Numbered from the stretch's first letter, positions 34,264 through 48,005 are shown. The stretch is 63,510 nt of DNA from Acidobacteriota bacterium (GCA_016213695.1 JACQZV010000098.1:1-63510), one strand, 5' to 3'. Made by a program: numbers and translations. Notes: generated from the letters alone by a model not told the origin.

Positions 34264-34286
34264 CGGTTCTCTCGACTGGAGACGAC

Positions 34287-35291
34287 ATGGCAATTCGTGT
34301 GGCGCTCATCGGGCTCGGACCCATCGGCGCCGCGGTGGCGCGTCAGCTCGACGGCCGCAGCGGCTTCCGGATCGTGGGGGCCGTGGACATCGATCCGCTC
34401 AAGGCGGGCAAGGATGCCGGTGATGTACTCCAGGTCGGAAGGCGGCTGCGCGTGCGCGTCACCGAGCACATCGGAGGGACGCTGAAGGCCGCCAGGGCAG
34501 ACGTGGCGGTGCTGTGCACCAGCTCGGCGCTCAAGACCGCGCTGCCGCAGTTCGAAGAGGTGCTGAAGCAGCGCGTGCCGATTGTGACCACGACGGAGCA
34601 GGCGGCGTACCCGACGCCGCGGACCCGCCGTTTCGCGAAGCGGCTGGACGAGGCGGCGCGCCGGGCGAAGGTGGCCGTGCTGGGCACCGGTGTCAATCCC
34701 GGGTTCGTGATGGACACGCTCCCGATTGCGCTGACCGCGGCCTGCGAGCGCGTCGACCGCATCGAAGTGCACCGCGTGCAGGACGCGCGCCTGCGCCGGC
34801 TGCCGTTTCAACAGAAGATCGGCGCCGGCCTCACGCGGGACCAGTTCGAGCACGGCCTCGAGCGGGGCTCGCTGCGGCACGTCGGCTTCACCGAATCGAT
34901 CCGGATGATTGCCGACGCGGTGGGCTGGACGCTCGAGCGGGTGACCGACGAGGTCATACCGAAGATCGCCACGCAGCCCGTCGAGAGCGAGCTGCTGGCC
35001 GTCGATCCGGGGTACGTGTGCGGGCTGATTCAGGACGGCACCGGCTACGTCGCCGGGGTGCCGCGCATCAGGCTCCACCTCGAAGCCTACCTCGGCGCGC
35101 CCGAGTCGTACGACTCGGTGCTCATCGAAGGGTCGCCGCAGATCCACTCGATGATCGCCGGCGGCGTGCACGGCGACATCGCGACCGCTGCCATGGTGGT
35201 GAACTCGATTCCCGTCGTGCTCGCCGCGCCGCCCGGCTTGCGCACGATGCGCGACCTGCGGCTGCCCTCGTTCTATTCGGGGCGACGATAA
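34287..35291 (+). CDS. DapB-like NAD(P)-dependent oxidoreductase (2,4-diaminopentanoate dehydrogenase-like)
   Basis: GLGPIG Rossmann motif, LGTGVNPGFVMD, QQKIGAGL, GGVHGDIATAA. Confidence 0.8.
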   Translation: MAIRVALIGLGPIGAAVARQLDGRSGFRIVGAVDIDPLKAGKDAGDVLQVGRRLRVRVTEHIGGTLKAARADVAVLCTSSALKTALPQFEEVLKQRVPIVTTTEQAAYPTPRTRRFAKRLDEAARRAKVAVLGTGVNPGFVMDTLPIALTAACERVDRIEVHRVQDARLRRLPFQQKIGAGLTRDQFEHGLERGSLRHVGFTESIRMIADAVGWTLERVTDEVIPKIATQPVESELLAVDPGYVCGLIQDGTGYVAGVPRIRLHLEAYLGAPESYDSVLIEGSPQIHSMIAGGVHGDIATAAMVVNSIPVVLAAPPGLRTMRDLRLPSFYSGRR

Positions 35292-36355
35292 GCCGGCTGC
35301 CTCGCGGCCGTGTCAGCCCGTTGCTGTTCCAGCCTGAGCTGTGCCGCTCGCGCGCAATCCTGCATGACCCTGAAATACCGCTGCACCCAGTCGGCCCCGA
35401 TGTCGTACGGGTGCGGACCGTTGCCGCGCCCGGCGATCATGCGGTTCTTGCTGACCGCATTGTCGAACTCCGAATGGTTCGAGAGGATGACGGTGGCACC
35501 GGTGGCAGCGGCCTGCGCGGCCATGTGCCGCTGCGAGTCGATATAGGTCTGAAAGTTCCGGATGCCCGGGTCTGGTGTGTTGTTCGTGAAGTTGAATGCC
35601 GTGCCGCCCGAATAGGCCACATTGACCCGGCGGCCCCTGTCCCGCACGGCAAACGTCAGCGACAGCGTGCCCGGCGTGTGGCCCGGGGTTTCCCAGAGGG
35701 TCACCGTCGTGTCGCCGAGCGTGACGTTCATCCCGTCGGTCCCGACGATGTCGCGCTTTGGCGCCATGGTCTTGTACCGGTTCGGGTACGTTTCGACCAG
35801 CCGCCAGTCGGGCGCGCCCATGACGATGCGGGCGCCGAAGCGGGCCTGCAGCATCTCAGCGCCGCCGATATGGTCGGCGTGGGCGTGGGAGATGACGACG
35901 TACTTGATGTCCCGCGGATTGAGGCCCAGCCGCTTCATCCCGCCGAGGATCAACTCCTCTGAATTGTAGGGATAGATCGTATCGAGCAGGATGATGCCGG
36001 CGCTCGTCGTCAGCGCCCAGGACGAGTGCACCTTGCCGCCGACGAAGTAGAGGTTGTCGAAGACCTTCGCCGGATCCGCGTACCAGGTGTCGCGCGCCGG
36101 CGCGCTGGCCGGGTTGGTGACGTATGCCGGCACGGCGTCGGTGGTATTGTCGCCACCGCTCTGCGGCAGCAGGCAGATGCGGGCCAGGGTGCCGAGGAAC
36201 TCGAATCCCGCCGCATCCTTGGCCGACTGGAGCGAGGCCAGGATTTCCGCGTCGAAGTGTCTCGCGGCCGGCCGCTCTTGCGCGGCCGCGCTGATGCCGG
36301 CGAGTCCGGCAACCATGGACACCGCCGCCCCGATTCCGAGCAGCCGCGATTTCAT
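35273..36355 (-). CDS. Secreted metallo-beta-lactamase-fold hydrolase, subclass B3-like
   Basis: Signal peptide; FDNLYFVG, SHAHADHIGG, TPGHTPG, LSNH. Confidence 0.85.
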   Translation of the reverse strand: MKSRLLGIGAAVSMVAGLAGISAAAQERPAARHFDAEILASLQSAKDAAGFEFLGTLARICLLPQSGGDNTTDAVPAYVTNPASAPARDTWYADPAKVFDNLYFVGGKVHSSWALTTSAGIILLDTIYPYNSEELILGGMKRLGLNPRDIKYVVISHAHADHIGGAEMLQARFGARIVMGAPDWRLVETYPNRYKTMAPKRDIVGTDGMNVTLGDTTVTLWETPGHTPGTLSLTFAVRDRGRRVNVAYSGGTAFNFTNNTPDPGIRNFQTYIDSQRHMAAQAAATGATVILSNHSEFDNAVSKNRMIAGRGNGPHPYDIGADWVQRYFRVMQDCARAAQLRLEQQRADTAARQPAYRRPE

Positions 36356-36426
36356 CGGGTGAGTGTACCCGCCAGGCCTGAGACTGTCACTCCGGGCGAT
36401 CGCCGTCCTCCGGCCAGGGAGCGGCT

Positions 36427-39159
36427 TCAGGCGGCGCCGATCGCCTGGGCGCCTTCGGGCGGTTCGAGTCCGTAGCGCACGCGCTTCAGATAGAGGCCTT
36501 TGCGCGACACGCCGAGCAGGGCGGCCGTCTCCTCCATGCGTCCGCCGGTCGTGCGGATCGCATGCTGGATCATCGCGCGCTCGAGGTGCTGGACGGCTGC
36601 GGGCAGCGGCTGATCGATGCGGACGACCAGCTCGGTCGGGTCGAGCACGCGCTCGGACGCGGGGACGGTTCGGCGCGACGCGGCGATGTCGGCTGACAGA
36701 TGTTCGGGCATCAGGACGGCGTTGGTTTCGGCCAGCGCCGCCATGCGCCGCATTTCGTTGGCGAGCTGCCGCACGTTGCCCGGCCACCGGTAGAGCACCA
36801 GATATTCCATCGTCTCTTCGGCGAGGCGGAGCTGTCCCTTGGCGTATTCGTGCGCGTGTTTCTGCAGGTAGTGGTGGGCGAGCGGCGGGATTTCGACGCG
36901 GCGCTCGCGGAGCGGCGGCACGTGCAGGTGGACGATGTTGAGGCGGTAGAAGAGGTCCTCGCGGAGCCGTCCCTGCGCGACGAGGGCGTCGAGGTCGGCG
37001 TTGGTGGCGACGATGACGCGGACGTCGGCGCGCACCGGCTGCACGTCGCCGATTGGATGGACCTCGTTGGATTCGAGGAAGCGCAGCAGCTTCGGCTGCA
37101 CCTCGAGCGTGGTTTCGCCGATCTCGTCGAGGAAGAGCGTGCCGCCGGTGGCGGCGCGAATGACGCCGGGGAAGTGCTCGGTGGCGCCGGTGAACGACCC
37201 TTTGCGGTGGCCGAAGAGCTGCGAATCGAGCATGTCCTTCGGCACGCTGCTGCAGTTGAACGGCAAAAACGTGGCGGCCGCGCGGTTCGAATAGCCGTGG
37301 ATGGTGCGCGCCAGCACTTCCTTGCCGGTGCCGGTTTCGCCGGTGATGAGGACCGGGACCGTGGTGGGCGCGATGCGGCGCGCGGTGGCGAGGAGCGCCT
37401 GCATCTCCTCGGCGAGGAAAAGGGCGCCGGCCTGTTCTTCGATGGGCGGGGCGGGCCAGAGGGCGGCGCGGTTGCGTTCCTCCTCGCGGGCCTGCTCGAG
37501 CGCGAGGGCGTGGCGGCCCATGCGCAGCACGTCGGCCAGGAGGATGGCCTTGGCGGGATCGCCGGGGATCGTGCAGACGAGCGTGAGGTGCTTCTTGCGA
37601 TCGACGCCGAGCGGCAGGACGACGGTCGTGTCGGAGGCGTTGGGCGCGGCGGCGTTCTCACGTGTTTCGACAAGCTTCGCGTCGGGCGAGCAGGCGAGGG
37701 CGTCGATGGCGAACTGCATTTCTTCGCCGAGCAGGCGCGGGCGATGGGCGAGGTCGGTGAAGGCGGCGAGCGAATCGGCGACGCATTCGGCGGTGCCGGC
37801 GCCGTGCGGCGTCGGCGGGGGCGTCGTGTCGGGCTGGGAGTCTGATGGGTTGTCGTCCATTTCCAGGCGAACGGACACGATGCCCTGACCGGCCCATAGT
37901 CGAAGTGCCCGATCCCGAAGCTGCTGCTCCAACGGCGTTGCAAGGCCATGCAGTACAAGCGCCGATGCGTAGTAGTACTGTGCCTGAAGTTCCCTGATGC
38001 TTGTGACATGGAGTTCGTCGGCGCGGACGAGACACAGCGACGCATTATTGAACTCTTGGGATCGTGCCCCTGCGTGGGCAGCAGTCAAGTAAATGGATCC
38101 CTTGAGCGGCACGTCGCTCCCTTGCAAGTAACTTGCGGCTGCTGCATCCAGTGATCGGACGGCTTCGGCAAACTGTCCCTGTCTTATCAAGAGTTGTGCC
38201 GTTGTTATTGCTGCCCATCGCACCTGGTAAAACGAAGCAACCCGGTCGGTCTGCCCAATACCCTGTGAAACAAACCGAAGCGTGTTCTCACAATCCTCGA
38301 GTTCACCGAGAGCTAAGTGCACCCTTGCGAGACCGACAGCTACGCCCACCCTAGTGAACAGGGATGTCTTCTTGTCATTCAGCAGCAGGGAGAACGTTCT
38401 CTTTGCCCTATCGAATTCACCCGCTAGTAGTTGTATGTGGCCAATATTGCTGTCGGCGTTCACTTCGGTTTGGACGTATCCGATCCGGCCTGCGACGAGT
38501 TTCGCCGATCGAAGAAGTTGGGCTGCGTTGCTGAACTCGCAGCGCAATATCGATATACATCCACGATTCAGAAGCAGCAAAGACGCCAACCAGGCATTTG
38601 ACGAAGCCTGCAGCAACGATTCGGCGATACTGCAGTGCCGCTGTGCCTCATCCAAGCGTCCTGTCTGGCCTTCCAGTACGGATACACATATGTGGAGGTA
38701 AGCGGTGGCGGCAGGAACACCTGCTCGATTCACGGTTCGCCTCGCGTCGTTCAGGGCCGTCAGGACGTTACTGATAGGGCCGCTTTCAATTAGGAGTCTC
38801 AGCAGATGCAGGTATGCCCAGGCAGTCAGTTCTACTTCCCTCGACTCCTGTGCAAGGTAGACCGCAGACTGGGCGTGGCGGATCGCGGAAGCCAAATCTC
38901 CACGGCGCCAGTTAACAGTTGCGATTGCTGACTCAGCTTGAGATCTTACAGAAGGCGCTGATGGTGGATGGCAGTCTAGCTCCGCCAAGCGCGCCGCCTC
39001 TTCGAGCTCACTCGTTAGCGTTAAGGCAGTCGCCACAATCACACGATGTCGCGGCTCGAGGCCTCTCCGCTCCTCTTCTGTGCAGGCCGAAACGTGAAGT
39101 AGCTGCCGAAAGTCACCCTGTCTGAATAGTCTCGCTGCTGCTTCGTAACTGGCGCCCAT
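36427..39159 (-). CDS. Sigma54-dependent enhancer-binding protein with long N-terminal TPR-like sensor
   Basis: GETGTGKE, SQLFGHRKGSFTGA, LFLDEIGE, REDLFYRLN, WPGNVRQL, Fis-type HTH; ~430-aa helical N-terminus with no receiver domain; GGAGAGG RBS. Confidence 0.9.
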   Translation of the reverse strand: MGASYEAAARLFRQGDFRQLLHVSACTEEERRGLEPRHRVIVATALTLTSELEEAARLAELDCHPPSAPSVRSQAESAIATVNWRRGDLASAIRHAQSAVYLAQESREVELTAWAYLHLLRLLIESGPISNVLTALNDARRTVNRAGVPAATAYLHICVSVLEGQTGRLDEAQRHCSIAESLLQASSNAWLASLLLLNRGCISILRCEFSNAAQLLRSAKLVAGRIGYVQTEVNADSNIGHIQLLAGEFDRAKRTFSLLLNDKKTSLFTRVGVAVGLARVHLALGELEDCENTLRFVSQGIGQTDRVASFYQVRWAAITTAQLLIRQGQFAEAVRSLDAAAASYLQGSDVPLKGSIYLTAAHAGARSQEFNNASLCLVRADELHVTSIRELQAQYYYASALVLHGLATPLEQQLRDRALRLWAGQGIVSVRLEMDDNPSDSQPDTTPPPTPHGAGTAECVADSLAAFTDLAHRPRLLGEEMQFAIDALACSPDAKLVETRENAAAPNASDTTVVLPLGVDRKKHLTLVCTIPGDPAKAILLADVLRMGRHALALEQAREEERNRAALWPAPPIEEQAGALFLAEEMQALLATARRIAPTTVPVLITGETGTGKEVLARTIHGYSNRAAATFLPFNCSSVPKDMLDSQLFGHRKGSFTGATEHFPGVIRAATGGTLFLDEIGETTLEVQPKLLRFLESNEVHPIGDVQPVRADVRVIVATNADLDALVAQGRLREDLFYRLNIVHLHVPPLRERRVEIPPLAHHYLQKHAHEYAKGQLRLAEETMEYLVLYRWPGNVRQLANEMRRMAALAETNAVLMPEHLSADIAASRRTVPASERVLDPTELVVRIDQPLPAAVQHLERAMIQHAIRTTGGRMEETAALLGVSRKGLYLKRVRYGLEPPEGAQAIGAA

Positions 39160-39192
39160 CGCACCTCTCCGAGAACGTTACGAGATGGCCCG

Positions 39193-41127
39193 TCAGGCCT
39201 TCTGGTTTGGGAATGACACCACGTTTGAGGAAGTGTTTGCGACGAGGGATGAGATCCGACTGGCGAGGGCAGAGCCAACGTGCTCGAACGTGTAGCGATG
39301 GCCTTCGTTAAAGGCATCCTTCTTGGCGGAGTATGCCGTTAGCACTCCCATCAAGCTGTCGCCTTGGACGAGCGGCGTGCTGAGGGTACTGCGCAATGGA
39401 GGTGCAAAGAACCCGGCAATTTGTGCTAAGTCCAGTGATGCATCTGAGTTAACTGACGCGCGACGATTCGCCGCGGTCCAGCCAGTGATTCTCTCGCCCA
39501 GCTTAATGGATAGGTTGTCCAAGAGGTGCTGGTTGTCTCCGTAAGCACTCACGCAGGTCAATATGTCTGCCGTGCTGTTATAAACAAATACCGCATAAAT
39601 GGTCGCCGGAGTGAGTTGTCGCAGGTAATGACCGGCACTCTGCAGTGCCGTCGCGGTCGAAGTCGCTCTCGCGATGTCCCTTGAACAGGTGTCCAGGAGC
39701 GTAGTTTCGGATGCATTCGCACGAATGTGCCGCAACGGTGCGGCCGTGTCGTCAATGGACGTTGTGAGTCCAGCCGCATCGATGATGCTGCGAGCGTCCT
39801 GGCCAGCCTGAATGGCGACGGGCGCGATCTCTTCGTACGCGTTGATGAACGTATCAACCACGAAGGGGTCGTACATCGTACCTCGGCTCTGACGAATTAT
39901 CGCGAACGCCTCATCGGTGCCCAGACGTGGACGATACGGTCGGTCGGATGTGAGGGCGTCAAAACAATCGACCACCGAGAGAATCCGTGCGCCTAGCGGA
40001 ATATCGGTTCCGGATATTCCTGTGGGATACCCCGTCCCGTCCCAGCATTCGTGATGGTGACGAACGATCGGGACGACGGGGTAGGGAAATCTGACAGAGG
40101 AGAGGAGATCGGCGCCAATGTCGGCATGGCGCTTCATCTTCTCGAACTCGGCAGCGCTAAGCTTCCCTGGTTTGTTCAGGATGTGTTCAGGGATGGCGAG
40201 TTTGCCCATGTCGTGGAGTAAAGCGGCGGTCGTAATGGCCTGCAGTTGCCGTTCCTCCGTAACACCGAGACGTTTCGCGAGTTCGACTGCAAACACCTGA
40301 ACCCGTCGGATGTGGCCGTGAGTGATCTGGTCTTTGGCATCTACAGCCATAGCCAGGGCCTCGATTGTGGACATGTAGAGGTCATTGAGCTGGACCACGT
40401 GCCGGTTAGCATCCTCGACCCGACCCAATGTCGACCGAAAGGTGTAGTACGAAATCAGGAGCAGCGGGATGATGATACTTAGGACCGTAACGTCTATCTG
40501 ATCCGTGTAAGCAACAATCAGCATTGCGAGCGAGCCGCCGACAAAATAATTGATGCTCGTACCGGGGAAATTGTTCGCCCAGAGTCGCACAACGCGTTCT
40601 CGGCGTTCGACCGCTAATGCACCTGCAACGAGACCGGTGTTGATGATGAAATACAAGAAAATGAACGCGAATACCGGAGTGATTAGTTGAGAAATGTCGT
40701 GACGGCCGATCTGTCCCGGGTGGGCGCCCGACAAATAGAAGAACGCCTCGCTTGCTAACCGAATTGCAATAGCGGGTGCGGTTCCGTTGAAGAGCACCTT
40801 CAGGGGCGATCTTCTCATTCGGTCTAGCCAGAAGGAGATGACTAGGGCGTCTAGAACGACGATGATGGTCCCAGCTGCGGGACCAAAGAGTAATACCGCG
40901 GTGAAGATGAAAGTTTCCGATACGGAAAGCCGGGCCTGTAGCCCAGGGACTCTTACCGTGAACGAACCGGTGAACAGAGTCAGGGCCGCCAAGACAAGCC
41001 ACTCAAGTCCCGGCGGGTCTAGTGACACTTGCCACAGGGATTGCGCGACTACGAAGAGGCCGGTCGCAATTACGACCGTTAGATATTGATGTCGGCGGCG
41101 TTCACTCGCCTTGGGTGTAACAGACAC
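39193..41127 (-). CDS. Membrane-anchored HD-GYP phosphodiesterase with C-terminal GAF domain
   Basis: ~6 N-terminal TM segments; DAKDQITHGHIRRV, LLHDMGK, HHHECWDGTGYPTG, VDCFDALTSDRPYR; GAF-like tail. Confidence 0.9.
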   Translation of the reverse strand: MSVTPKASERRRHQYLTVVIATGLFVVAQSLWQVSLDPPGLEWLVLAALTLFTGSFTVRVPGLQARLSVSETFIFTAVLLFGPAAGTIIVVLDALVISFWLDRMRRSPLKVLFNGTAPAIAIRLASEAFFYLSGAHPGQIGRHDISQLITPVFAFIFLYFIINTGLVAGALAVERRERVVRLWANNFPGTSINYFVGGSLAMLIVAYTDQIDVTVLSIIIPLLLISYYTFRSTLGRVEDANRHVVQLNDLYMSTIEALAMAVDAKDQITHGHIRRVQVFAVELAKRLGVTEERQLQAITTAALLHDMGKLAIPEHILNKPGKLSAAEFEKMKRHADIGADLLSSVRFPYPVVPIVRHHHECWDGTGYPTGISGTDIPLGARILSVVDCFDALTSDRPYRPRLGTDEAFAIIRQSRGTMYDPFVVDTFINAYEEIAPVAIQAGQDARSIIDAAGLTTSIDDTAAPLRHIRANASETTLLDTCSRDIARATSTATALQSAGHYLRQLTPATIYAVFVYNSTADILTCVSAYGDNQHLLDNLSIKLGERITGWTAANRRASVNSDASLDLAQIAGFFAPPLRSTLSTPLVQGDSLMGVLTAYSAKKDAFNEGHRYTFEHVGSALASRISSLVANTSSNVVSFPNQKA

Positions 41128-41153
41128 ACTCGTTTGTACCGCACCTTATCGGC

Positions 41154-41183
41154 TTAGTCGCCCCAAACAATTATTCTTCGCAC
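41154..41183 (-). other. Isolated IIVWGD-stop unit: relic S8 tail or 9-aa micro-ORF (MRRIIVWGD)
   Basis: Minus strand reads GGGGG-AAATA-GTG CGA AGA ATA ATT GTT TGG GGC GAC TAA; out of frame with S8 (stops 49 nt apart). Confidence 0.4.
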
Positions 41184-41202
41184 TATTTCCCCCGAATCTG
41201 CG

Positions 41203-42873
41203 TTAGTCGCCCCAGACGGTGGTGTCGCCCCAGACGGTGGTGTCGCCCCAGACGGTGGTGTCGCCCCAGACGGCGGTGTCGCCCCAGACGGCGGTGTCGC
41301 CCCAGACGGTGGTGTCGCCCCAGACGGTGGTGTCGCCCCAGACGGCGGTGTCGCCCCAGACGGCGGTGTCGCCCCAGACGGTGGTGTCGCCCCAGAGTGT
41401 TATTGCGCCAAAGACAACTCCACCGCTCGAAACCGTCTCCCCCGCAATAACCGTCACCGGCGGCCCTTCGGAGTCAGCCGCACTCAGCGCCGCCACGACG
41501 TTCAAGCTGCCGGCCCCCGCACGCAGCAACCCAATCGGCATCGCCTCCGCGCTCGCCTGCAGAGTCGCCCGCACCTGGAGCGGATTGAGCGCGCGCGCGT
41601 CGAGCAGCAGCGCCGTCGCCCCCGAGACCACCGCGGCCGACATGCTCGTCCCCGACAACTGCAGCCGCTTGCCCTCGGCTGTATCGATGACGAGCTCCGG
41701 GTGCTCCCGCGCAAGCGTCGACCCCGGCGCCAGCAGCCCCACAACCTTGTTCCCCGGCGCCACCAGATCCGGCTTGATGAGGCCGTCAAACAGCGTCAGG
41801 CCACGCGAGCTGTACGTCGTGATCACGTCGTCAGACCGCTGCGCCGTCCCCTTCGTGTTGAGCGCGCCCACCGTGATCGCATAGGGCGAATTGCCCGGCA
41901 CCGTGATCCCGCCGAATACCTCGGTGCCGGCCGCATCCTTACCGTGGTTGCCGGCCGACGCCACCACGACGAGGCCCGCGCGATACGCGCGCTCCACCGC
42001 CTGGCACAACGGATCGTCGGCGCACCGCTGCAGCACCGGCCCGCCGAGCGACAGGTTGATCACCTTGATGCCGTAGCGATCGCGGTTCGCAATCGCCCAG
42101 TCGATCGCGTCAATCACGTCGGCCGCATAGCCGGCGCCGTTCGCGTCGAGCACCTTCAGGTTGATGAGACGCGCGCCCGGCGCGACACCGCGCGTCGGGT
42201 CCTTCGAGTTCGCCCCGGACGCCGCGATGATCCCTGCCACGTGCGTGCCGTGTCCGTTGTCGTCGCCGGCGTTCCCGCGCACCCCGGCGCCGGCGTCCGC
42301 GCAGTCGGTCTTCCCGACCTTCTGGCCCGATCGTTTGGACGCCGCCGTGAAGTCAACGCTCACGACAATGCGGCCGCGGAGCTGCGGCAGATCCGCAATG
42401 CCCGTGTCGACGACTGCCACGCCGATGCCGTCGCCGGTCACCCCGTCCGCGCCCGGCGCCCACCCGTCGGTCCACACCTGGTCGGCGCCAATCGCCACGG
42501 TGGTCACCGCCATCTGCGGCTGCACCCGGTAGTTGCTCGACAAGGCGCCGAGCCGGCCGTCGGCCGCCAGCGCGCTCAGCGCGCCGGCCGGCACCGCAAC
42601 CACCGCGCCGGTCTTCAGCCGCTTGCCGACGCGCAGGCCGTGCCGCGCCGCCAGCGTGTCGATCTGCGCCTGTGTCCCGGGGACGATGACGCAGGTCTCT
42701 TCAGTGGTGCCAGCTTGGAGCCGCTCGGTCAGGTCCTCGGAAAGGCGCGCACGCCGGCCCTGCGCCAACGCGTCGGTCCCGGAAAGCAGGAGTACCGCAC
42801 ACAGCAGGGCATGGAGTGTCCGGCTGCTGCCAGACACGACGAGTGACCAACGATTTCCGGGGCACGGGACCAA
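41203..42873 (-). CDS. Secreted S8 subtilase (AprX-like) with C-terminal (xxxWGD)11 repeat tail
   Basis: VAVVDTG, HGTHVAG, SAGN, SGTSMSAAVVSG; signal-peptide-like LLCAVLLLSGTDALAQ; start uncertain (42873 or GTG 42837). Confidence 0.92.
   Translation of the reverse strand: MVPCPGNRWSLVVSGSSRTLHALLCAVLLLSGTDALAQGRRARLSEDLTERLQAGTTEETCVIVPGTQAQIDTLAARHGLRVGKRLKTGAVVAVPAGALSALAADGRLGALSSNYRVQPQMAVTTVAIGADQVWTDGWAPGADGVTGDGIGVAVVDTGIADLPQLRGRIVVSVDFTAASKRSGQKVGKTDCADAGAGVRGNAGDDNGHGTHVAGIIAASGANSKDPTRGVAPGARLINLKVLDANGAGYAADVIDAIDWAIANRDRYGIKVINLSLGGPVLQRCADDPLCQAVERAYRAGLVVVASAGNHGKDAAGTEVFGGITVPGNSPYAITVGALNTKGTAQRSDDVITTYSSRGLTLFDGLIKPDLVAPGNKVVGLLAPGSTLAREHPELVIDTAEGKRLQLSGTSMSAAVVSGATALLLDARALNPLQVRATLQASAEAMPIGLLRAGAGSLNVVAALSAADSEGPPVTVIAGETVSSGGVVFGAITLWGDTTVWGDTAVWGDTAVWGDTTVWGDTTVWGDTAVWGDTAVWGDTTVWGDTTVWGDTTVWGD
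41206..41403. repeat. In-frame 18-bp tandem repeat x11 encoding T(T/A)VWGD
   Basis: gtcgccccagacgg(t/c)ggt x10 plus one divergent ITLWGD unit. Confidence 0.97.
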
Positions 42874-42891
42874 GCGGGACCTCCAGGGGAC

Positions 42892-43152
42892 TCAGGTTCG
42901 GGCGGGTCTCAGGACAAAGGTGGCCGCCGACGCCGACGTTGAAAAGGGCTGGGGCTGGAACCCCAGGCCGTAGAGCGATTCGACGAGCACGCGCTGCGAC
43001 CCGCCCATCGTGCGGATCGTCAGCAGACGCCCGTCGCGTATCCGGTAGTAGACCGTGCGGCGTGAGACCTTCAGGAGCTGCGCGGCCTGATCGATCGACA
43101 CGCTTCGTCCGAGACGCAGTTCAGAAGCGGACGCTGATAATTCGGTATGCAC
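42892..43152 (-). CDS. Small excisionase-like (HTH_17/MerR-type) DNA-binding protein
   Basis: VSIDQAAQLLKVSRRTVYYRIRDGRLLTIR. Confidence 0.8.
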   Translation of the reverse strand: MHTELSASASELRLGRSVSIDQAAQLLKVSRRTVYYRIRDGRLLTIRTMGGSQRVLVESLYGLGFQPQPFSTSASAATFVLRPART

Positions 43153-43175
43153 TCAACTTTCCGCTTTGCACACTG

Positions 43176-43190
43176 GCAGGGTTGGTGCCA
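43176..43190 (-). promoter_or_regulatory. Sigma54 -24/-12 promoter for the HTH-S8-HD-GYP-EBP operon
   Basis: Minus strand TGGCAC-CAACC-CTGC (GG-N10-GC), ~24 nt before the HTH start. Confidence 0.65.
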
Positions 43191-43368
43191 CATCCGGGCG
43201 CGAAGGGGCGCAGCGGGGTAAGCGACCGACACTCAGTGGGTTACAGCAGGCGGATACCTGCGGCCGGCAGCGAGGGGGTGGCGCCAGTGGTCAGGGGCTT
43301 GGCCGCCCGGGCCGCCGGCTGCCCGTTGCAGCAGTGGGCAATCTGCACAGCGATGTGTTGAAATCTGC

Positions 43369-45144
43369 ATGGATTCACCGAGCGGCCAAGAAATTGACCA
43401 GGGTGGCAGAAACCTGCGCGTAAAACGCTCCGTCATCGCGGCTGTCGCCGGCGCCGCGCTCCTGCTCGCTTTGGCGCTGCTGTTCCTGCGGCGTCCCGGT
43501 GGTCCAGCGCCACCAGTGAGTCCGGCGCGCGGCGGCCAGATTGTTGCGTCGATCCGCGCCGAGCCGCGGTCGTTCAACCGCCTCGTCGCCCGCGACCAGT
43601 CCACCGACCTCCTGACGTTCCTGACCCAGGGCCGGCTCGTACGGATCAACCGCGCCTCCTTCGATCTGGAGCCCTGGCTGGCCGAGCGGTGGGAGTCGAG
43701 CGCCGACGGACGCGTGCACACGCTGCACCTGCGGCCCGGCGTGACCTGGTCCGACGGGATGCCGTTCACCTCAGCCGACGTGCTGTTCTCGGTGCAGGCG
43801 GTCTTCGACCGGCGCGCCCAGAGCGTGCTGGCCAGCAGCCTCGCCGCCGGCGGGCAGCCGATTCGCGCCGCGGCGCCCGACGCGCAGACGGTCGTCATCA
43901 CCTTTCCTGTGCCGTCCGGCCCCGGGCTGCGCCTGCTCGACCAGTTGCCAATCCTGCCGAAGCACAAGCTGCAGGGAGCGCTCGCGGCCGGGACGTTTGC
44001 CTCCGCGTGGAATGCCGCGACGCCACCGGCCGAGATCGTCGGCACGGGCCCCTTCGTCGTGCGCGAGTACCAGCCGGGACAGCGCGTCGTGCTCGACAGG
44101 AACCCGCGCTACTGGCGGCGCGCCCCCGACGGCGCCGCGCTCCCGTACCTCGATCGCATCGTCCTCGAGATCGTGCCCGAGCAGAACGCGGAGCTGCTGC
44201 GGCTGCAGTCGGGGGGCACCGACCTCTCGTCGAGCGAGCTGCGTCCGGAGGATTACGCTCCGGTCAAACAGGCGGAGGAGCAGGGACGGCTGCGGCTCGT
44301 CGAGCTCGGCGTCGGTCCGGATGCCGACGCGTTCTGGTTCTGCCTCAAGCCCGAGGTCAAGGGCAAAGACCCCCGTTTCGTGTTCGTGCAGCGGCCGGAG
44401 TTTCGGGCGGCCATCTCGCATGCGGTCGACCGCGAGGCATTCGCCCACACCGTGTTCCTGGGCGCCGCGGTGCCCGTGTGGGGTCCCGTCACGCCCGGCA
44501 ACACGCAGTGGTTCTGGCCCGACGTGCCCCGTTATGCGTACGACGAGGCGCGCGCGCGCGATCTGCTCGCGGGCCTTGGCCTCGAGGATCGCGATCACAA
44601 CGGGGTGGTTGAGGACGCGCGCGGTACCGAAGCACGCTTCACCGTCATCACGCAGCGGGGCATCGGCTGGTACGAGCGGGGCACCGCCGTGCTCCGCGAG
44701 AGCCTGGCGCGCGTCGGCATCGCGATCGATGTCGCGCCGCTCGAATTCGGCGCGATGATCCAGCGGATGCTCGCGTGCGACTACGACGCCATGTACTACC
44801 GGCCGGTCTTCACGGATCTCGACCCGGCCGGCAACCTCGACTTCTGGCTCACCTCCGGCTCCGCGCATGTGTGGAACCTGGAGCAGCGCGTGCCCGCCAC
44901 CGAGTGGGAGCGGCGGATCGACACGCTGATGCTCGAGCAGGCGGCGACAATCGATCCCGAGCGGCGGCACGAGCAGTTCAACCTCGTGCAGCGCATCGCC
45001 GGCGAGAACCTGCCGGTGCTCTACTTCGCGGCGCCGCGGCTCTACTACGGGCACAGCGTCCGCCTGCGCGGCGTCGTCCCGTCCGTCCTGCGGCCGCCGG
45101 TGTTGTGGAACGCCGACAGTCTCAGCGTGGCGCCCGGTGAGTAG
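43369..45144 (+). CDS. ABC transporter substrate-binding protein, family 5 (peptide/nickel)
   Basis: LEPWLAERW, LRPGVTWSDGMPFTSADVLFS, GTGPF, RAAISHAVDR; N-terminal membrane anchor; start uncertain. Confidence 0.88.
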   Translation: MDSPSGQEIDQGGRNLRVKRSVIAAVAGAALLLALALLFLRRPGGPAPPVSPARGGQIVASIRAEPRSFNRLVARDQSTDLLTFLTQGRLVRINRASFDLEPWLAERWESSADGRVHTLHLRPGVTWSDGMPFTSADVLFSVQAVFDRRAQSVLASSLAAGGQPIRAAAPDAQTVVITFPVPSGPGLRLLDQLPILPKHKLQGALAAGTFASAWNAATPPAEIVGTGPFVVREYQPGQRVVLDRNPRYWRRAPDGAALPYLDRIVLEIVPEQNAELLRLQSGGTDLSSSELRPEDYAPVKQAEEQGRLRLVELGVGPDADAFWFCLKPEVKGKDPRFVFVQRPEFRAAISHAVDREAFAHTVFLGAAVPVWGPVTPGNTQWFWPDVPRYAYDEARARDLLAGLGLEDRDHNGVVEDARGTEARFTVITQRGIGWYERGTAVLRESLARVGIAIDVAPLEFGAMIQRMLACDYDAMYYRPVFTDLDPAGNLDFWLTSGSAHVWNLEQRVPATEWERRIDTLMLEQAATIDPERRHEQFNLVQRIAGENLPVLYFAAPRLYYGHSVRLRGVVPSVLRPPVLWNADSLSVAPGE

Positions 45145-46126
45145 CTTCCTGGCCCGGCGCCTGTTGTTTGCGCTCGCGCTCGTGGTCGTCGTGTCGTCGT
45201 CGGCGCTGCTGCTGGCGCGGCTGGCGCCCGGAGACGTCACCGCCGAGCTCGGCCCGTTTGCCGGCGCCGCCGAGATTGCCGGCACGCGCGCGCGGTTCGA
45301 TCTTGACCGCAACCCCGCGTCGCAATGGGTCGTCTGGATGGCGCGGGCCGCGCGCTTCGAGTTCGGCGACTCGTTTCTCTACAACCGGCCCGTGCGCGGG
45401 CTCGTGCTGCGCGCCGCCGCCAATACGGCGGTGCTGGCGCTCGCCGCGCTGGCGCTGGCGACGCTTGTCGGGATACCGCTCGGCATCGTGGCGGGCAGCC
45501 GGCAGGGAACGGGCGCCGCCGTGATCCGCGCGGCGTCGCTCGTCTGCCTCTCGGTGCCGCCGCTCCTCACCTCGCTCCTGCTCGTGTTCGTCGCCGCCAC
45601 CACTCGCTGGTTTCCTCTCGGCGGGATGACGTCGGTGGCCGCCGTCGGCCCGAGCGGGCCGGCCTGGCTGGCCGACGTCGCCGTCCACCTGCCGCTGCCG
45701 GTGCTCGCGCTCGCGCTGCCGATTGCCGCCACGTTCGAGCGGCTGCAGGCACAGGCGATCACCGACGCGCTGCGCCAGCCGTTTGCGCTCGCCGCGGTGG
45801 CGCGGGGCCTGTCGGCCCGCGACGTCGTGCTCCGCCACGCGTGGCGCGTGTCTCTCCGTCCTCTCTGCGGCGTGTACGGGCTGGCGGTCGGCGCGCTGCT
45901 GTCGGGGTCGTTCGTCGTGGAGTTCGTGACCGCGTGGCCGGGCCTCGGGCGCCTCACCTACGAGGCGCTGCGCGCGCGCGATATCTATCTGGTGGCCGGG
46001 TGCGCGGCGATGGGCGGCGTGTTTCTCGCGCTCGGCAGCCTCGTCGGCGACCTGTTGCTCCTCGCGGCCGATCCCCGCCTGCGTGAGGCGGCCCGGGCCC
46101 GTTCCGGCGAAAGGCAGACCGCATGA
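45137..46126 (+). CDS. Peptide ABC permease (OppB/DppB-like)
   Basis: LARLAPGD, FEFGDSF, AVARGLS...HAWR (EAA-like loop), TAWPGLGRL. Confidence 0.9.
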   Translation: MSSFLARRLLFALALVVVVSSSALLLARLAPGDVTAELGPFAGAAEIAGTRARFDLDRNPASQWVVWMARAARFEFGDSFLYNRPVRGLVLRAAANTAVLALAALALATLVGIPLGIVAGSRQGTGAAVIRAASLVCLSVPPLLTSLLLVFVAATTRWFPLGGMTSVAAVGPSGPAWLADVAVHLPLPVLALALPIAATFERLQAQAITDALRQPFALAAVARGLSARDVVLRHAWRVSLRPLCGVYGLAVGALLSGSFVVEFVTAWPGLGRLTYEALRARDIYLVAGCAAMGGVFLALGSLVGDLLLLAADPRLREAARARSGERQTA

Positions 46127-47097
46127 GGCGCGCCGGGCAGGGGCTGCTCGCGCTCGTCGTGCTCGGCGCGGCCGCCGCGCCCTGGCTCGCGCCCAATCCG
46201 CCCGATCGGACCTTCCCGGCCGCACTCTATGCGCCGCCCACGCCTGTCAGGCTGCGGCACGCCGGCCTGCGGGCGCCGTTCATCTATCCGCAGCGCGTCG
46301 TCAGCGCGCTTGAGCGGCGATTCGAAGAGGACGCGACGCGTCCCGTGCCGCTGCAGTGGTTCCGCGACGGCCGGCTGGTCACCGTGCCCGACGCCGGCGG
46401 CGGTCCGCTGCTGCTGCTCGGCGCCGACAGCCTCGGCCGCGACACGTTCTCGCGCCTGCTGTACGGCGCGCGCACCTCGCTCGTGCTCGCCGCCGCGTCC
46501 ACGCTGCTCGCGCTGCTTGTCGGAGCCCTCATCGGCGGCATCGCCGGGTATGCCGGCGGCGTCGCCGACGAAACGCTGTCGCGGCTGACGGACTTCGTGC
46601 TCGTGCTGCCGGCCATGTACGTAGCGCTCGCGCTGCGCGCCGTCATGCCGCTCGTGCTGCCGCCGGCCACCGTGTTCGCGCTGCTGACGGCCATTTTTGC
46701 GCTACTGGGGTGGCCGGTCGTCGCCCGCGGCGTGCGCGCCATCGTCGCCTCCGAGCGCGAGCGCGAATACGTCGTCGCCGGCCGGGCGCTCGGCGCCACG
46801 CCGTCGCGCCTGCTCGCGCGGTACCTCCTGCCCGCGGCCGGCGGGTACCTGGCGGTGCAGGCCACGCTGCTCCTGCCCGCATTCATCCTGGCCGAGGCCA
46901 CGCTCTCGTACGTCGGCCTCGGCTTTCCGGCGACGGTGCCCACCTGGGGCACGATGCTGCAGGAGGCGGCCAACGTGTCCCTGCTCGGCGGGGCGCCGTG
47001 GGTGCTCGCTCCGGCCGCAGCGATCTTCGTCGTCGTGCTTGCGGTGAACCTGGTGGTGCAGGGAACCGGCCGGGCGCCTGTACAATTGGAGCCATGA
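46123..47097 (+). CDS. Peptide ABC permease (OppC/DppC-like)
   Basis: LLGADSLGRDTFSRLLYGARTSL, EYVVAGRALGA, EATLSYVGLG, WGTML. Confidence 0.9.
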   Translation: MRRAGQGLLALVVLGAAAAPWLAPNPPDRTFPAALYAPPTPVRLRHAGLRAPFIYPQRVVSALERRFEEDATRPVPLQWFRDGRLVTVPDAGGGPLLLLGADSLGRDTFSRLLYGARTSLVLAAASTLLALLVGALIGGIAGYAGGVADETLSRLTDFVLVLPAMYVALALRAVMPLVLPPATVFALLTAIFALLGWPVVARGVRAIVASEREREYVVAGRALGATPSRLLARYLLPAAGGYLAVQATLLLPAFILAEATLSYVGLGFPATVPTWGTMLQEAANVSLLGGAPWVLAPAAAIFVVVLAVNLVVQGTGRAPVQLEP

Positions 47098-48005
47098 AGC
47101 GGTTCGCCGGCATCTTCACGCCGATCGCGACGCCGTTTGCTGCCGACGACAGCCTCGACGAGGCAGGGCTGCGATCGAATGTGGCGCGGTGGATGGCGAC
47201 GCCGCTCACCGGCCTCGTCGTCCTCGGCTCAAACGGCGAGGCGCCGCAGCTCGATGACGAGGAAGCCGACCGCGTCATCGCCATCGCGCGCGCCGAAATG
47301 CCTCGGAACCGTCCCATGATCGTGGGCACCGGGCGCGAGGCCACCAGAGCCACGATCGCGGCCACCCGACGCGCGGCCGCCCTTGGCGCGGACGCGGCGC
47401 TCGTCCGGACGCCGTCGTTCTTCAAGGCGCAGATGACGACCGACGTCTTCGTACGGCATTACCTCGAGGTGGCCGAGGCGTCGCCAATCCCGGTCCTGCT
47501 CTACAACGTGACGATGTACACCGGTGTCAACCTGCCGCCCGACGCGGTGGCGACGCTGGCGACTCATCCCAACATCGTCGGCATGAAGGAGTCGGGAGGC
47601 GACCTCGCGCAGATCGCGGAATACATCGCGCGGACGCCGGACGACTGGACGGTGCTGGCAGGGTCGGCCGCCACCTTCTTTCCGGCGCTCTGCGCCGGGT
47701 GCGACGGCGCCGTCCTTGCGCTCGCGCAACTGGCGCCCGAGGCGTGCGTGAAGATGCGCGCGCTCGTGCAGGCGGGCCGTGTCGACGAGGCGCGGGCGCT
47801 GCAGCGCCGGCTCGCACCGCTGGCGCGATCGATCGGCGGCCAGCACGGCGTGCCCGCGCTGAAGGCCGCGCTCACCCTGATGGGCTACGCCGGCGGTGCT
47901 CCACGCCCGCCGCTGCGGGCCGTCGGGCCGCAGGTCGTTGACATCCTCAAATCGCAGCTCGATGCGTTGGGGCTGGTCGAGCAGGTACCACAGTTGCAGC
48001 AGTGA
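47094..48005 (+). CDS. DHDPS/DapA-family aldolase (HOGA-like GSNGE motif)
   Basis: TPIATPF, LGSNGE, LLYNV, VGMKESGG. Confidence 0.88.
   Translation: MKRFAGIFTPIATPFAADDSLDEAGLRSNVARWMATPLTGLVVLGSNGEAPQLDDEEADRVIAIARAEMPRNRPMIVGTGREATRATIAATRRAAALGADAALVRTPSFFKAQMTTDVFVRHYLEVAEASPIPVLLYNVTMYTGVNLPPDAVATLATHPNIVGMKESGGDLAQIAEYIARTPDDWTVLAGSAATFFPALCAGCDGAVLALAQLAPEACVKMRALVQAGRVDEARALQRRLAPLARSIGGQHGVPALKAALTLMGYAGGAPRPPLRAVGPQVVDILKSQLDALGLVEQVPQLQQ

What the first reader, a model, noticed from the sequence alone, without database searches (positions are those of the whole stretch)
36427..47097. Candidate undescribed peptide-signalling circuit: sigma54 promoter > HTH > S8-(WGD)11 > membrane HD-GYP > TPR-sigma54 activator, facing a peptide ABC importer
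Seen: four co-oriented minus-strand genes with 18-75 bp gaps under a -24/-12 promoter. The last gene encodes a sigma54 activator with a TPR-like sensor, and an Opp/Dpp-type importer is transcribed divergently. Established: sigma54 promoters need an enhancer-binding protein; TPR domains bind short peptides in RRNPP quorum sensors; Opp re-imports secreted signal peptides; HD-GYP proteins degrade cyclic dinucleotides. Inference: the secreted subtilase releases its own repeated hexapeptides. These are sensed outside by the membrane HD-GYP and/or imported and bound by the TPR domain, which activates the operon's own promoter (positive feedback). This would be a protease-embedded, multi-copy autoinducer system in a diderm.
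Basis: partly seen in the sequence, partly recalled or inferred. Interest (0 to 1): 0.92.

Follow-up and report, generated by a model that had tools for sequence, protein, structure and literature searches.

The report
Trp-tailed protease, micro-peptide, c-di-GMP cassette
A soil/groundwater acidobacterium carries a conserved, undescribed gene cassette in which a secreted protease with a tryptophan-repeat tail, a 9-codon mini-gene ending in the same motif, a membrane c-di-GMP enzyme, a sigma-54 activator and a peptide importer travel together, which looks like a peptide-based signalling circuit but has never been tested.

Summary
The promoter recurs in 12/12 related loci, with two GGCCAA-N4-TTGGCC palindromes about 115 and 210 bp upstream.

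First, the gene after a Trp-repeat S8 is a MASE9 protein in 34/64 loci, including Chloroflexota and Actinomycetota. Second, a 9-codon micro-ORF with its own Shine-Dalgarno (window 41154-41183, MRRIIVWGD; elsewhere M[KR]xLIIWGE) lies between S8 and MASE9. Searching metagenomes with that micro-ORF alone recovered the whole cassette 21 times.

Nothing shows that the tail is cleaved. AlphaFold2 gives the tail no confident fold.

Best reading (about 0.4): a sigma-54-driven, autoregulated cassette in which the xΦΦW[GST][DE] motif couples the protease to the sensors. No paper found describes it.

The parts
36427..39159 (-). Sigma-54 enhancer-binding protein, 910 aa: a ~560-aa TPR-like N-terminal region, an AAA+ domain with a GSFTGA loop, and HTH_8
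   Evidence: Pfam PF00158 206.9 bits, PF17874 45.8 bits (cut-off 45), PF02954 36 bits. Orthologues of 866-935 aa are present in all micro-ORF-type loci.
39193..41127 (-). Membrane c-di-GMP phosphodiesterase: MASE9 (about 6 TM), HD-GYP, GAF
   Evidence: Pfam HD_5 138.8 bits, GAF_2 41.8 bits, MASE9 25.0 bits (cut-off 24.3). HD and HHExWDGxGYP motifs were read. It is the gene right after the S8 in 34/64 loci.
41154..41183 (-). Conserved micro-ORF: GTG CGA AGA ATA ATT GTT TGG GGC GAC TAA = (M)RRIIVWGD. GGGGG lies 5 nt before the start.
   Evidence: Homologous micro-ORFs with a Shine-Dalgarno and synonymous variation occur in 11 further loci and in 21 metagenome contigs. It is the only ΦΦW[GSTE][DE]-stop in six frames of the 3.75-Mb genome.
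41203..41403 (-). C-terminal tail of the S8: ITLWGD plus 10 x T[TA]VWGD, then the stop
   Evidence: AlphaFold2 pLDDT is about 33 for residues 497-556.
41203..42873 (-). Secreted S8 subtilase with a signal-peptide-like N-terminus, a propeptide-like region, the catalytic domain and the Trp-repeat tail
   Evidence: Pfam PF00082 169 bits. More than 5000 homologues were found, and nearly all full-length ones have Trp repeats. AlphaFold2 pLDDT exceeds 90 over the catalytic domain.
42892..43152 (-). Small HTH_17 (excisionase/MerR-like) DNA-binding protein, first gene of the operon
   Evidence: Pfam 30 bits and TIGR01764 31 bits. Present in Vicinamibacteria-type loci only.
43176..43190 (-). Sigma-54 -24/-12 promoter element, TGGCAC-N5-CTGC
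   Evidence: TGG[CT]AC-N5-xxGC is found at the same place in 12/12 related loci.
43289..43304 (.). Proximal palindrome GGCCAA-N4-TTGGCC (2 mismatches), about 114 bp upstream of the -24 element. Candidate enhancer (UAS).
   Evidence: The same spacing (114-117 bp) occurs in L004, L005, L006 and L020.
43384..43399 (.). Distal palindrome (1 mismatch), about 209 bp upstream of the -24 element. It overlaps the first codons of the SBP ORF.
   Evidence: Spacing is 206-214 bp in seven loci.
43369..47097 (+). Divergent ABC importer genes: an SBP_bac_5 substrate-binding protein and two permeases. No ATPase gene is present.
   Evidence: Pfam 242.7, 90.2 and 70.7 bits. The SBP is co-located in 10/15 HD-GYP-linked S8 loci and in 0/15 unlinked ones.

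Best explanation
SHOWN
This is one copy of a conserved acidobacterial cassette. Its order is peptide ABC importer <> sigma-54 promoter with two upstream palindromes > HTH_17 > secreted S8 protease with a Trp-repeat tail > 9-codon micro-ORF ending in the same motif > MASE9-HD-GYP-GAF > TPR-like sigma-54 activator. The core pair, a Trp-tailed S8 followed directly by a MASE9 c-di-GMP enzyme, recurs in at least three phyla.

INFERRED
- The activator binds the palindromes and fires the sigma-54 promoter, and so drives its own gene (positive feedback).
- The protease is exported by Sec.
- The shared motif xΦΦW[G/S/T][D/E] is the recognition element that couples the protease to the sensors. This motif is present as the free C-terminus of the micro-peptide and as the repeated and terminal units of the S8 tail.
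- The candidate sensors are the MASE9 domain in the membrane and/or the TPR-like domain in the cytoplasm after uptake by the ABC importer.
- The HD-GYP lowers c-di-GMP as the output. In Terriglobales relatives the activator carries a PilZ domain, which would close the loop between c-di-GMP and sigma-54 transcription.

NOT DECIDED BY THE EVIDENCE
Which molecule is the ligand: the micro-peptide, released tail fragments, or the intact tail.
For: Conserved linkage
- In S8-seeded loci with at least 8 kb on both sides, loci with an HD-GYP neighbour have an EBP in 10/15 and an SBP in 10/15. Loci without one have 1/15 and 0/15.
- Gene order differs between Vicinamibacteria, Solibacter-type and Terriglobales loci.

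S8 to MASE9 adjacency
- 34/64 Trp-tailed S8 genes are followed by a MASE9 gene, against 0/9 S8 genes that lack any Trp repeats (3 of 12 low-count S8s did have one, but these look frameshifted or truncated Trp-tailed genes).
- This includes Chloroflexota (MASE9-GGDEF-MASE9-HD-GYP) and Actinomycetota (MASE9-GAF-GGDEF-EAL). Profile-profile comparison (hhalign) of the actinobacterial domain gives probability 98%, E 2.9e-13.
- Reciprocally, 6 of the 8 closest MASE9-HD-GYP homologues in 150 Acidobacteriota genomes have the S8 just upstream.

Micro-ORF
- It has a Shine-Dalgarno, a start codon and 8-9 codons, with synonymous variation. It is the only conserved island in the intergenic region.
- The motif plus stop occurs 18 times in 2.0 Mb x 6 frames, 14 of them right after an S8. 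It occurs once in the whole 3.75-Mb genome.
- A 21-nt micro-ORF pattern recovered 21 metagenome contigs, all with the same cassette order.
- Further copies lie after nrdJ and are followed by a hairpin, which argues for a trans-acting product.
- The residues after Trp partly co-vary between micro-ORF and tail: WGD/WGD in the window and L124, and WTD/WT[DN] in L008, L047, L125 and L128.

Cis-regulatory elements and components
- The promoter is conserved and the palindromes sit at fixed distances from it.
- rpoN is present.
- A PilZ domain sits on the EBP in Terriglobales.
- The tail has no confident fold, which fits a ligand or substrate.
Against: - No experiment or transcript data exist. The only run holding this sequence is the source DNA metagenome.
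- The micro-peptide has no export signal and is shorter than any established pheromone precursor.
- Tail units vary widely while the micro-ORF is constant, so they are not simple copies of one signal.
- About half of the Trp-tailed S8 genes have no MASE9 neighbour.
- Only 11/31 MASE9-HD-GYP homologues have an S8 nearby.
- For 8-residue repeats AlphaFold2 draws one strand per repeat (pLDDT 47-65), and some relatives just pass the Pfam grass-antifreeze beta-roll model. A structural tail is therefore not excluded.
- A sigma-54 promoter is not evident in most Terriglobales-type loci.
- The loci are not phylogenetically independent, so the Fisher tests are indicative only.
Confidence: 0.4

Rival explanations
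1. Nutritional regulon. The cassette is a sigma-54/c-di-GMP-controlled protein-scavenging unit. The S8 digests external protein and the ABC system imports the peptides. The Trp-repeat tail is a structural beta-roll that anchors the enzyme or binds a polymer. The micro-ORF is a leader or coupling ORF with no signalling role.
For: - S8 plus peptide ABC importer is a classic feeding pair.
- In Vicinamibacteria the importer operon continues with DHDPS-family, aminotransferase and M48 genes, and an M1 peptidase lies nearby.
- Relatives' tails pass Pfam LbR_Ice_bind (34.6 and 31.1 bits, cut-off 30).
- AlphaFold2 draws regular strands for 8-mer repeats.
- Trp tails occur widely without EBP or Opp genes.
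Against: - It does not explain why a MASE9 protein follows the S8 in three phyla, whatever its output domain.
- It does not explain why a micro-ORF carries the tail motif and is under peptide-level selection.
- It does not explain why micro-ORF copies sit after nrdJ with nothing downstream to regulate.
- The window's tail has pLDDT of about 33 and no Pfam hit.
Confidence: 0.3
2. The S8 cuts its own tail into many identical hexapeptides. These act as a multi-copy autoinducer, sensed outside by the MASE9-HD-GYP and/or imported and bound by the TPR domain.
For: - The neighbourhood is conserved.
- The tail has no confident fold.
- The 18-bp units are near-identical.
- ΦΦW followed by a small residue resembles a subtilisin-type P3-P1/P1' site (my own knowledge, not tested).
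- Subtilisin-family proteases mature Phr peptides in Bacillus (recalled, not checked here).
Against: - Tail units differ greatly between loci that share the same micro-ORF, and between close relatives: TTVWGD here and GIGWSD in the same family.
- MASE9 has almost no external surface.
- The TPR sensor is replaced by PAS/PilZ or GAF elsewhere.
- Trp tails exist without Opp or EBP genes.
- There is no evidence of cleavage.
Confidence: 0.12
3. Inside-out control, like LapD/LapG. The MASE9 protein holds or releases the exported protease through its Trp tail, according to the c-di-GMP/GAF state. The cell thereby regulates protease activity at the membrane and does not sense a signal.
For: - The S8-MASE9 pair is tight and cross-phylum whatever the output domain.
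- Topology fits both monoderms and diderms, because the tail and the outer face of the membrane share a compartment (inference).
Against: - MASE9 lacks a periplasmic domain to hold a protein.
- It does not explain the micro-ORF, the importer or the sigma-54 activator.
Confidence: 0.1

Closest known systems
RRNPP peptide quorum sensing of Bacillota (Rap/Phr, NprR, PlcR/PapR, Rgg/SHP, ComR/XIP), as defined in PMC10075063
   Same: A small peptide gene lies near a cytoplasmic regulator with TPR-like repeats. An Opp-type importer gene and a subtilisin-family protease are at hand. The peptide is short, hydrophobic and Trp-containing; ComS/XIP also has a C-terminal Trp motif (recalled).
   Different: The host is a diderm acidobacterium. 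The peptide gene has 8-9 codons and no export signal. The receptor is 910 aa with a sigma-54 AAA+ output. Peptide and receptor genes are not adjacent. A MASE9 c-di-GMP enzyme is the most constant partner. The motif is also repeated on the protease itself.
c-di-GMP-responsive sigma-54 activators (FleQ of Pseudomonas, FlrA of Vibrio, Nla24 of Myxococcus; reviewed in papers listed)
   Same: A sigma-54 enhancer-binding protein is genetically tied to c-di-GMP turnover. Terriglobales versions of this cassette carry a PilZ domain on the activator.
   Different: The window's activator has no PilZ and has a long TPR-like N-terminus. The targets are a protease operon, not flagella or exopolysaccharide. 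c-di-GMP binding was not tested.
MASE9-HD-GYP proteins (Galperin & Chou, bioRxiv 10.1101/2021.11.05.467447; HdgA of Streptomyces venezuelae, PMC6205966)
   Same: Same architecture: MASE9-HD-GYP(-GAF-GGDEF). The sensor is membrane-embedded with short loops.
   Different: Those papers name no ligand and no protease neighbour. Here the sensor is paired with a Trp-tailed S8 and a micro-ORF.
LapD/LapG c-di-GMP-controlled periplasmic protease system
   Same: A membrane c-di-GMP protein is genetically coupled to an exported protease.
   Different: LapG is a cysteine protease. LapD has a periplasmic binding domain and degenerate GGDEF-EAL domains. No repeat tail, micro-ORF or sigma-54 component is involved.
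Subtilases with C-terminal extensions (for example the aqualysin-type C-terminal pro-sequence; recalled from memory)
   Same: S8 catalytic domain with an N-terminal propeptide and a C-terminal appendage that may be removed after export.
   Different: The appendage here is a low-complexity Trp repeat of period 5-10 that evolves by unit turnover. It is linked to signalling genes.

Membership tests
Sigma-54 enhancer-binding proteins (bEBP) | AAA+ sigma-54 interaction domain with a GAFTGA-type loop | tested here: met
   PF00158 206.9 bits. GSFTGA, Walker A (GETGTGKE) and Walker B (LFLDEIG) were read.
Sigma-54 enhancer-binding proteins (bEBP) | C-terminal DNA-binding HTH, a sigma-54 gene in the genome, and a -24/-12 target promoter | tested here: met
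   HTH_8 36 bits. rpoN 220 bits on C33. The promoter is conserved in 12/12 loci.
Sigma-54 enhancer-binding proteins (bEBP) | Activates this promoter from the upstream palindromes | not testable with these tools
   Only positional conservation of the palindromes is available.
HD-GYP c-di-GMP phosphodiesterases | HD_5 domain with HD and HHExxDGxGYP motifs | tested here: met
   PF13487 138.8 bits. LLHDMGK and HHHECWDGTGYP are present.
MASE9 membrane sensor domain | Match to PF20972 at the N-terminus of a c-di-GMP enzyme | tested here: met
   25.0 bits against a cut-off of 24.3, which is marginal. It is supported by a family profile built here and by hhalign probability 98% to actinobacterial members.
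Peptidase S8 (subtilases) | S8 domain with an Asp-His-Ser triad | tested here: met
   PF00082 169 bits. D156, H208 and S410 are invariant.
RRNPP quorum sensing (criteria of PMC10075063) | Propeptide of 10-100 aa exported by Sec or PptAB | tested here: not met
   The micro-ORF product has 8-9 residues and no room for a signal peptide.
RRNPP quorum sensing (criteria of PMC10075063) | Receptor of 250-500 aa with peptide-binding TPRs, directly adjacent to the propeptide gene | tested here: not met
   The receptor candidate has 910 aa with an AAA+ output. The TPR_MalT match is at threshold. The HD-GYP gene lies between micro-ORF and EBP.
RRNPP quorum sensing (criteria of PMC10075063) | Peptide binds the TPR domain and changes regulator activity | not testable with these tools
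   No co-folding or binding assay was available. The N-terminus has no PDB sequence relative.
Opp/Dpp-type ABC importer | SBP_bac_5, two permeases and ATPase(s) | tested here: inconclusive
   The SBP and two permeases are present. No ATPase gene lies in the cluster. Terriglobales versions carry one.
Beta-roll of the grass antifreeze type (PF21300 LbR_Ice_bind) | Tail matches the model or folds as a roll | tested here: not met
   The window's protein has no Pfam hit for the tail and pLDDT is about 33. Relatives with 8-mers give 31-35 bits and weak strands.
PilZ-type c-di-GMP-binding activator | PilZ domain on the EBP | tested here: not met
   Absent from the window's EBP. Present in L037 and L136.

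The most novel reading that the evidence does not exclude
The cassette is a genetically encoded peptide-signalling system of diderm soil bacteria. A leaderless 8-9-residue peptide (M[KR]xLIIWGE; here MRRIIVWGD), and possibly fragments or the free C-terminus of the protease's Trp-repeat tail, would be the cognate ligand. The receptors would be the MASE9 membrane sensor and/or the TPR-like sigma-54 activator. This would give MASE9 its first ligand. It would also give Acidobacteriota (and, through the S8-MASE9 pair, Chloroflexota and Actinomycetota) a peptide-to-c-di-GMP pathway with no described counterpart.
Probability: 0.25. Interest if true: 0.9.

Novelty: new variant of a known kind. Interest (0 to 1): 0.8.

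Why it matters
- MASE9 is a widespread sensor domain with no known signal. A fixed partnership with one kind of secreted protease, in three phyla, is the first concrete lead to what it detects.
- Peptide signalling through ribosomally made peptides is regarded as a Bacillota trait. A conserved micro-gene next to a TPR-like activator, a subtilase and an Opp-type importer in Acidobacteriota would extend it to an abundant, poorly understood soil phylum. It would also tie it to c-di-GMP and sigma-54.
- The micro-ORF is missed by gene callers and is a clean, testable object.
- If the tail is only a structural anchor and the micro-ORF a leader, the cassette is still a well-defined sigma-54 regulon with a conserved promoter and enhancer sites. 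That would be of moderate interest.

Tried and rejected
- AlphaFold2 on the whole S8 with 72 homologues. The tail was unstructured (pLDDT about 33). A second run on an 8-mer relative gave only weak strands. The fold question stays open.
- Rfam scan of 36000-47500. It gave only a sub-threshold ZMP/ZTP hit antisense to the EBP 3' end, and nothing at the micro-ORF.
- PDB sequence search with the EBP N-terminus found no relative.
- Search for RNA runs found only the source DNA metagenome.
- Sigma-54 promoter search in Terriglobales-type loci. Convincing sites appeared only in L035, L033 and L018. The others have a conserved TTGACAC and GTTACTTCAGTAAGC instead.
- 'Relic of a twelfth repeat' for the micro-ORF was rejected. 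The micro-ORF has its own Shine-Dalgarno and start, shows synonymous variation, occurs in dozens of loci, and has copies after nrdJ.
- 'Leader peptide controlling the HD-GYP gene' is disfavoured for the same nrdJ reason, but is not excluded.
- 'Low-GC stretch means recent transfer' was rejected. The same dip occurs in a same-family genome.
- Simple scan for micro-ORFs in Actinomycetota and Chloroflexota loci gave nothing convincing, apart from one 45-aa ORF ending SVSWNG in L066.
- A formal co-variation test between tail unit and MASE9 sequence was considered and dropped as too confounded by phylogeny.
- The paralogue on contig C169 is cut by the contig end.

Full report
**What is there**

The window is about 69% G+C, comes from a groundwater metagenome and belongs to the Acidobacteriota, close to Vicinamibacterales. 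On the minus strand it carries four co-oriented ORFs separated by 18, 75 and 33 bp:

- **HTH_17 protein**, 86 aa (42892-43152).
- **S8 subtilase**, 556 aa (41203-42873).
- **MASE9-HD-GYP-GAF protein**, 644 aa (39193-41127).
- **Sigma-54 activator**, 910 aa (36427-39159). It has an N-terminal region of about 560 aa that just passes Pfam TPR_MalT.

Further checks on these parts:

- The S8 catalytic triad is invariant among 72 homologues.
- The HD-GYP has both signature motifs.
- The activator has a GSFTGA loop and HTH_8.
- The S8 ends in ITLWGD plus ten T[TA]VWGD units, encoded by 10.6 copies of an 18-bp unit at 97% identity.
- TGGCAC-N5-CTGC lies at 43190-43176, 24 nt before the first gene.
- rpoN is present elsewhere in the genome.
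- Divergently lie an SBP_bac_5 protein and two permeases, but no ABC ATPase.

**Is the neighbourhood conserved?**

I collected 80 genome loci encoding S8 relatives and searched their flanks with the window's proteins.

- **Co-location across orders.** The S8, a MASE9-HD-GYP-GAF protein, a sigma-54 activator and an SBP_bac_5 protein co-locate in Vicinamibacterales, Solibacteraceae/Bryobacterales and Terriglobales. Gene order differs between them.
- **Vicinamibacteria relatives** repeat the window's order exactly.
- **Terriglobales** have a divergent activator (PAS-AAA-HTH_8-PilZ). It is followed on the other strand by MASE9-HD-GYP-GAF-GGDEF, two permeases, the SBP, an ABC ATPase, the S8 and a stand-alone MASE9 protein.
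- **Counts.** I took Trp-tailed S8 loci with at least 8 kb on each side. Those with an HD-GYP neighbour also have an activator in 10/15 and the SBP in 10/15. Those without have 1/15 and 0/15 (loci are not independent, so the p-values of 0.002 and 0.0002 are indicative only).

The linkage is real.

**Cis elements**

- **Promoter.** TGG[CT]AC-N5-xxGC lies just upstream of HTH_17 or the S8 in all 12 Vicinamibacteria and Solibacter-type loci examined.
- **Palindromes.** In the window and in L004, L005, L006 and L020, two copies of GGCCAA-N4-TTGGCC lie 114-117 and 206-214 bp upstream of the -24 element. L008 and L047 have them at about 158 and 246 bp.
- **Chance.** In the window, 7 matches at up to 2 mismatches are found against 2.0 expected. 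The two intergenic ones are at 43289-43304 and 43384-43399.
- **What the palindromes track.** They occur in loci without HTH_17 (L008, L047). They are replaced by other repeats where the activator is more distant (L007, L010, L012). They therefore track the activator.

This is the classical layout of a sigma-54 promoter with two enhancer sites. Because the activator gene is the last gene of the unit, with no convincing internal promoter or terminator, positive autoregulation is plausible. It is not shown.

**The tail**

- **Prevalence.** Nearly every full-length homologue among more than 5000 hits has a C-terminal tandem repeat built on ΦΦW followed by G/S/A/T and an acidic or polar residue. 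The period is 5 to 10 and the units differ strongly between proteins.
- **Other phyla.** Such tails also occur in Actinomycetota (STWSG), Chloroflexota (VNWGS, TVGWN), Gammaproteobacteria (GYLWSD) and Armatimonadota. Most of these loci have none of the other cassette genes.
- **Close relative.** A same-family genome has GIGWSD units where the window has TTVWGD.
- **Fold.** Some relatives with 8-residue units just pass the Pfam grass-antifreeze beta-roll model. AlphaFold2 gives the window's tail pLDDT of about 33. For an 8-mer relative it draws one short strand per repeat at pLDDT 47-65.

The fold is undecided. The tail is a general appendage of this protease clade, not something special to this circuit.

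**The constant partner is MASE9**

I took the ORF that starts within 800 nt after each S8 and searched it with a profile of the window's membrane domain.

- **Forward test.** 34 of 64 Trp-tailed S8 genes with enough downstream sequence are followed by a MASE9 protein. Among S8 genes with few Trp, 3 of 12 are, and all three look like frameshifted or truncated Trp-tailed genes. That leaves 0 of 9.
- **Output domain varies.** It is HD-GYP-GAF(-GGDEF) or none in Acidobacteriota, GGDEF-MASE9-HD-GYP in Chloroflexota, and GAF-GGDEF-EAL in Actinomycetota.
- **Homology check.** Pfam's own MASE9 model misses the last two. However, the Chloroflexota domains were found by phmmer and tblastn. The actinobacterial domains align to the acidobacterial profile with hhalign probability 98%, E 2.9e-13, over 207 columns.
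- **Reciprocal test.** I examined 31 full-length homologues of the window's HD-GYP protein from 150 Acidobacteriota genomes. Eleven have an S8 within 9 kb, including 6 of the 8 most similar.
- **Literature.** The survey that defined MASE9 describes short outer loops, charged residues in the membrane core and probable ligand binding within the membrane. It mentions no protease. The Streptomyces work on HdgA mentions none either.

**A micro-ORF**

Another first-stage note flagged an out-of-frame 'twelfth unit' after the S8 stop. Earlier agents' notes on other genomes mention tiny ORFs with the tail motif. I tested this here.

- **In the window.** 41183-41154 (minus strand) reads GTG CGA AGA ATA ATT GTT TGG GGC GAC TAA, that is (M)RRIIVWGD, with GGGGG 5 nt before the start.
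- **In other genome loci.** Eleven other loci have an ORF of 8-9 codons at the same place. Each has a GGAG-type Shine-Dalgarno 5-10 nt upstream. The products are M[KR]xLIIWGE, MR[IV]IVWTD or MKFVVYWGD, and differences are mostly synonymous.
- **Conservation.** It is the only conserved island in the S8-to-MASE9 spacer.
- **Rarity.** The motif ΦΦW[GSTE][DE]-stop occurs 18 times in 2.0 Mb read in six frames. Fourteen are these micro-ORFs, three are S8 ends and one is unexplained. In the window's whole 3.75-Mb genome it occurs once, here.
- **Independent test.** A metagenome scan with the 21-nt pattern CTNATCATCTGGGGNGARTAG returned 80 contigs. About 45 are the C-terminus of one unrelated, heavily sampled protein. 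Twenty-one are micro-ORFs. Wherever the contig is long enough they are flanked by SBP(-), HTH_17, a Trp-tailed S8, then MASE9-HD-GYP-GAF and the TPR-like activator.
- **A second context.** About twelve more micro-ORFs (M[KT]LIIWGE, with a Shine-Dalgarno) lie just after a class II ribonucleotide reductase gene. They are followed by a hairpin and no downstream gene.

The second context argues against both a decaying repeat relic and a purely cis-acting leader. It favours a peptide product that acts in trans.

All loci with the micro-ORF have the long (866-935 aa) TPR-like activator. PilZ-type loci have a stand-alone MASE9 gene instead.

In several lineages the residues after Trp agree between micro-ORF and tail:

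- WGD in the window and L124.
- WT[DN] in L008, L047, L125 and L128.

However, loci that share LIIWGE carry very different tails: SVIWGE, TVVWSN, GIHWSE, GLGWSD and TLVWAD. Often the last unit switches to ...W[GS]E.

**How it most likely works**

Shown:
- The cassette, its cis elements, the S8-MASE9 pair and the micro-ORF.

Inferred:
- The activator binds the palindromes and drives the sigma-54 operon, including itself.
- The S8 is exported. Its N-terminus looks like a signal peptide, and a propeptide-like region follows (read by eye).
- The shared motif xΦΦW[G/S/T][D/E] is the element recognised by MASE9 in the membrane and/or by the TPR-like domain after import.
- The HD-GYP sets c-di-GMP. 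In Terriglobales, c-di-GMP feeds back on the activator through PilZ.

I cannot tell whether the ligand is the micro-peptide, released tail fragments or the intact tail. I put this general reading at 0.4. The rivals are:
- A feeding regulon with a structural tail: 0.3.
- A LapD/LapG-like inside-out control of the protease: 0.1.

**Comparison with known systems**

The cassette resembles RRNPP systems in its parts list: a small peptide gene, a TPR-like regulator, an Opp-type importer and a subtilisin-type protease. It fails their published criteria on peptide length and export, receptor size, adjacency and phylum (PMC10075063).

It resembles FleQ-type c-di-GMP-responsive sigma-54 activators only through the PilZ-bearing relatives.

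Six literature searches found no description of the S8-MASE9 pairing, the micro-ORF or the cassette. Earlier AI notes of this scan report the same pairing in other genomes. They served as leads, and I re-derived the points I use.

**Verdict**

- The thing is real, conserved and apparently undescribed.
- The mechanism is inferred, not shown.

Noticed in passing
L157, L166, L172, L173, L182, L185, L198, L202, L206, L227 (metagenome contigs); e.g. L198:9364-9393: Copies of the micro-ORF (M[KT]LIIWGE, with a Shine-Dalgarno) sit directly after a class II B12-dependent ribonucleotide reductase gene. A hairpin follows and there is no downstream gene. L171 and L228 carry similar MKLIIWGE copies whose upstream gene is not evident. 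This is a second, unexplained genomic home for the same mini-gene.
   Followed up: partly
window 37800-41200: A G+C dip to 53-61% (surroundings about 70%) covers the HD-GYP gene and the TPR-like half of the activator gene. The same dip occurs in a same-family genome (L117), so it is an old, maintained feature and not a recent transfer. The micro-ORF also uses codons that are rare for this genome (CGA, AGA, ATA, ATT, GTT).
   Followed up: partly
L123:1543-6621 and L128:1666-6636: Near the S8-MASE9 pair of two other Acidobacteriota lies a ~1650-1690-aa activator ORF. In L123 it fuses a protein kinase domain, a STAND NTPase, TPRs and a sigma-54 AAA+ domain. The L128 ORF was not domain-scanned.
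   Followed up: no
window 36376-36457 (+): Sub-threshold ZMP/ZTP riboswitch match (33.8 bits, gathering score 39), antisense to the 3' end of the activator gene. Probably chance.
   Followed up: no
window 58820 (-): A second -24/-12-like site, TGGCATCCACCCTGCT. It is the only other match in the window to the relaxed sigma-54 pattern.
   Followed up: no
window 47094-49444 (+) and 32205-35291: Flanking genes are syntenic in Vicinamibacteria relatives (L085, L086) but not in other orders. They are a DHDPS-family enzyme and M48-LysM peptidase after the permeases, and a DAP-dehydrogenase-like gene and M1 peptidase beyond the activator. They may belong to a wider peptide and amino-acid utilisation neighbourhood.
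   Followed up: partly
L117:8800-8900 (same-family genome): The S8 tail repeat (GIGWSD units) is interrupted by a run of N. Such repeat arrays break assemblies, so copy numbers in MAGs are unreliable.
   Followed up: no
L023, L029, L037, L049 (Terriglobales-type loci), EBP/HD-GYP intergenic region: Conserved TTGACAC near the activator start, and a conserved GTTACTTCAGTAAGC-like element with AAGTAAC half-sites. This suggests a different operator and promoter logic from the Vicinamibacteria type.
   Followed up: no
L006:11770-11885: Two tandem micro-ORF copies (both MKLIIWGE) lie between the S8 and the MASE9 gene.
   Followed up: no
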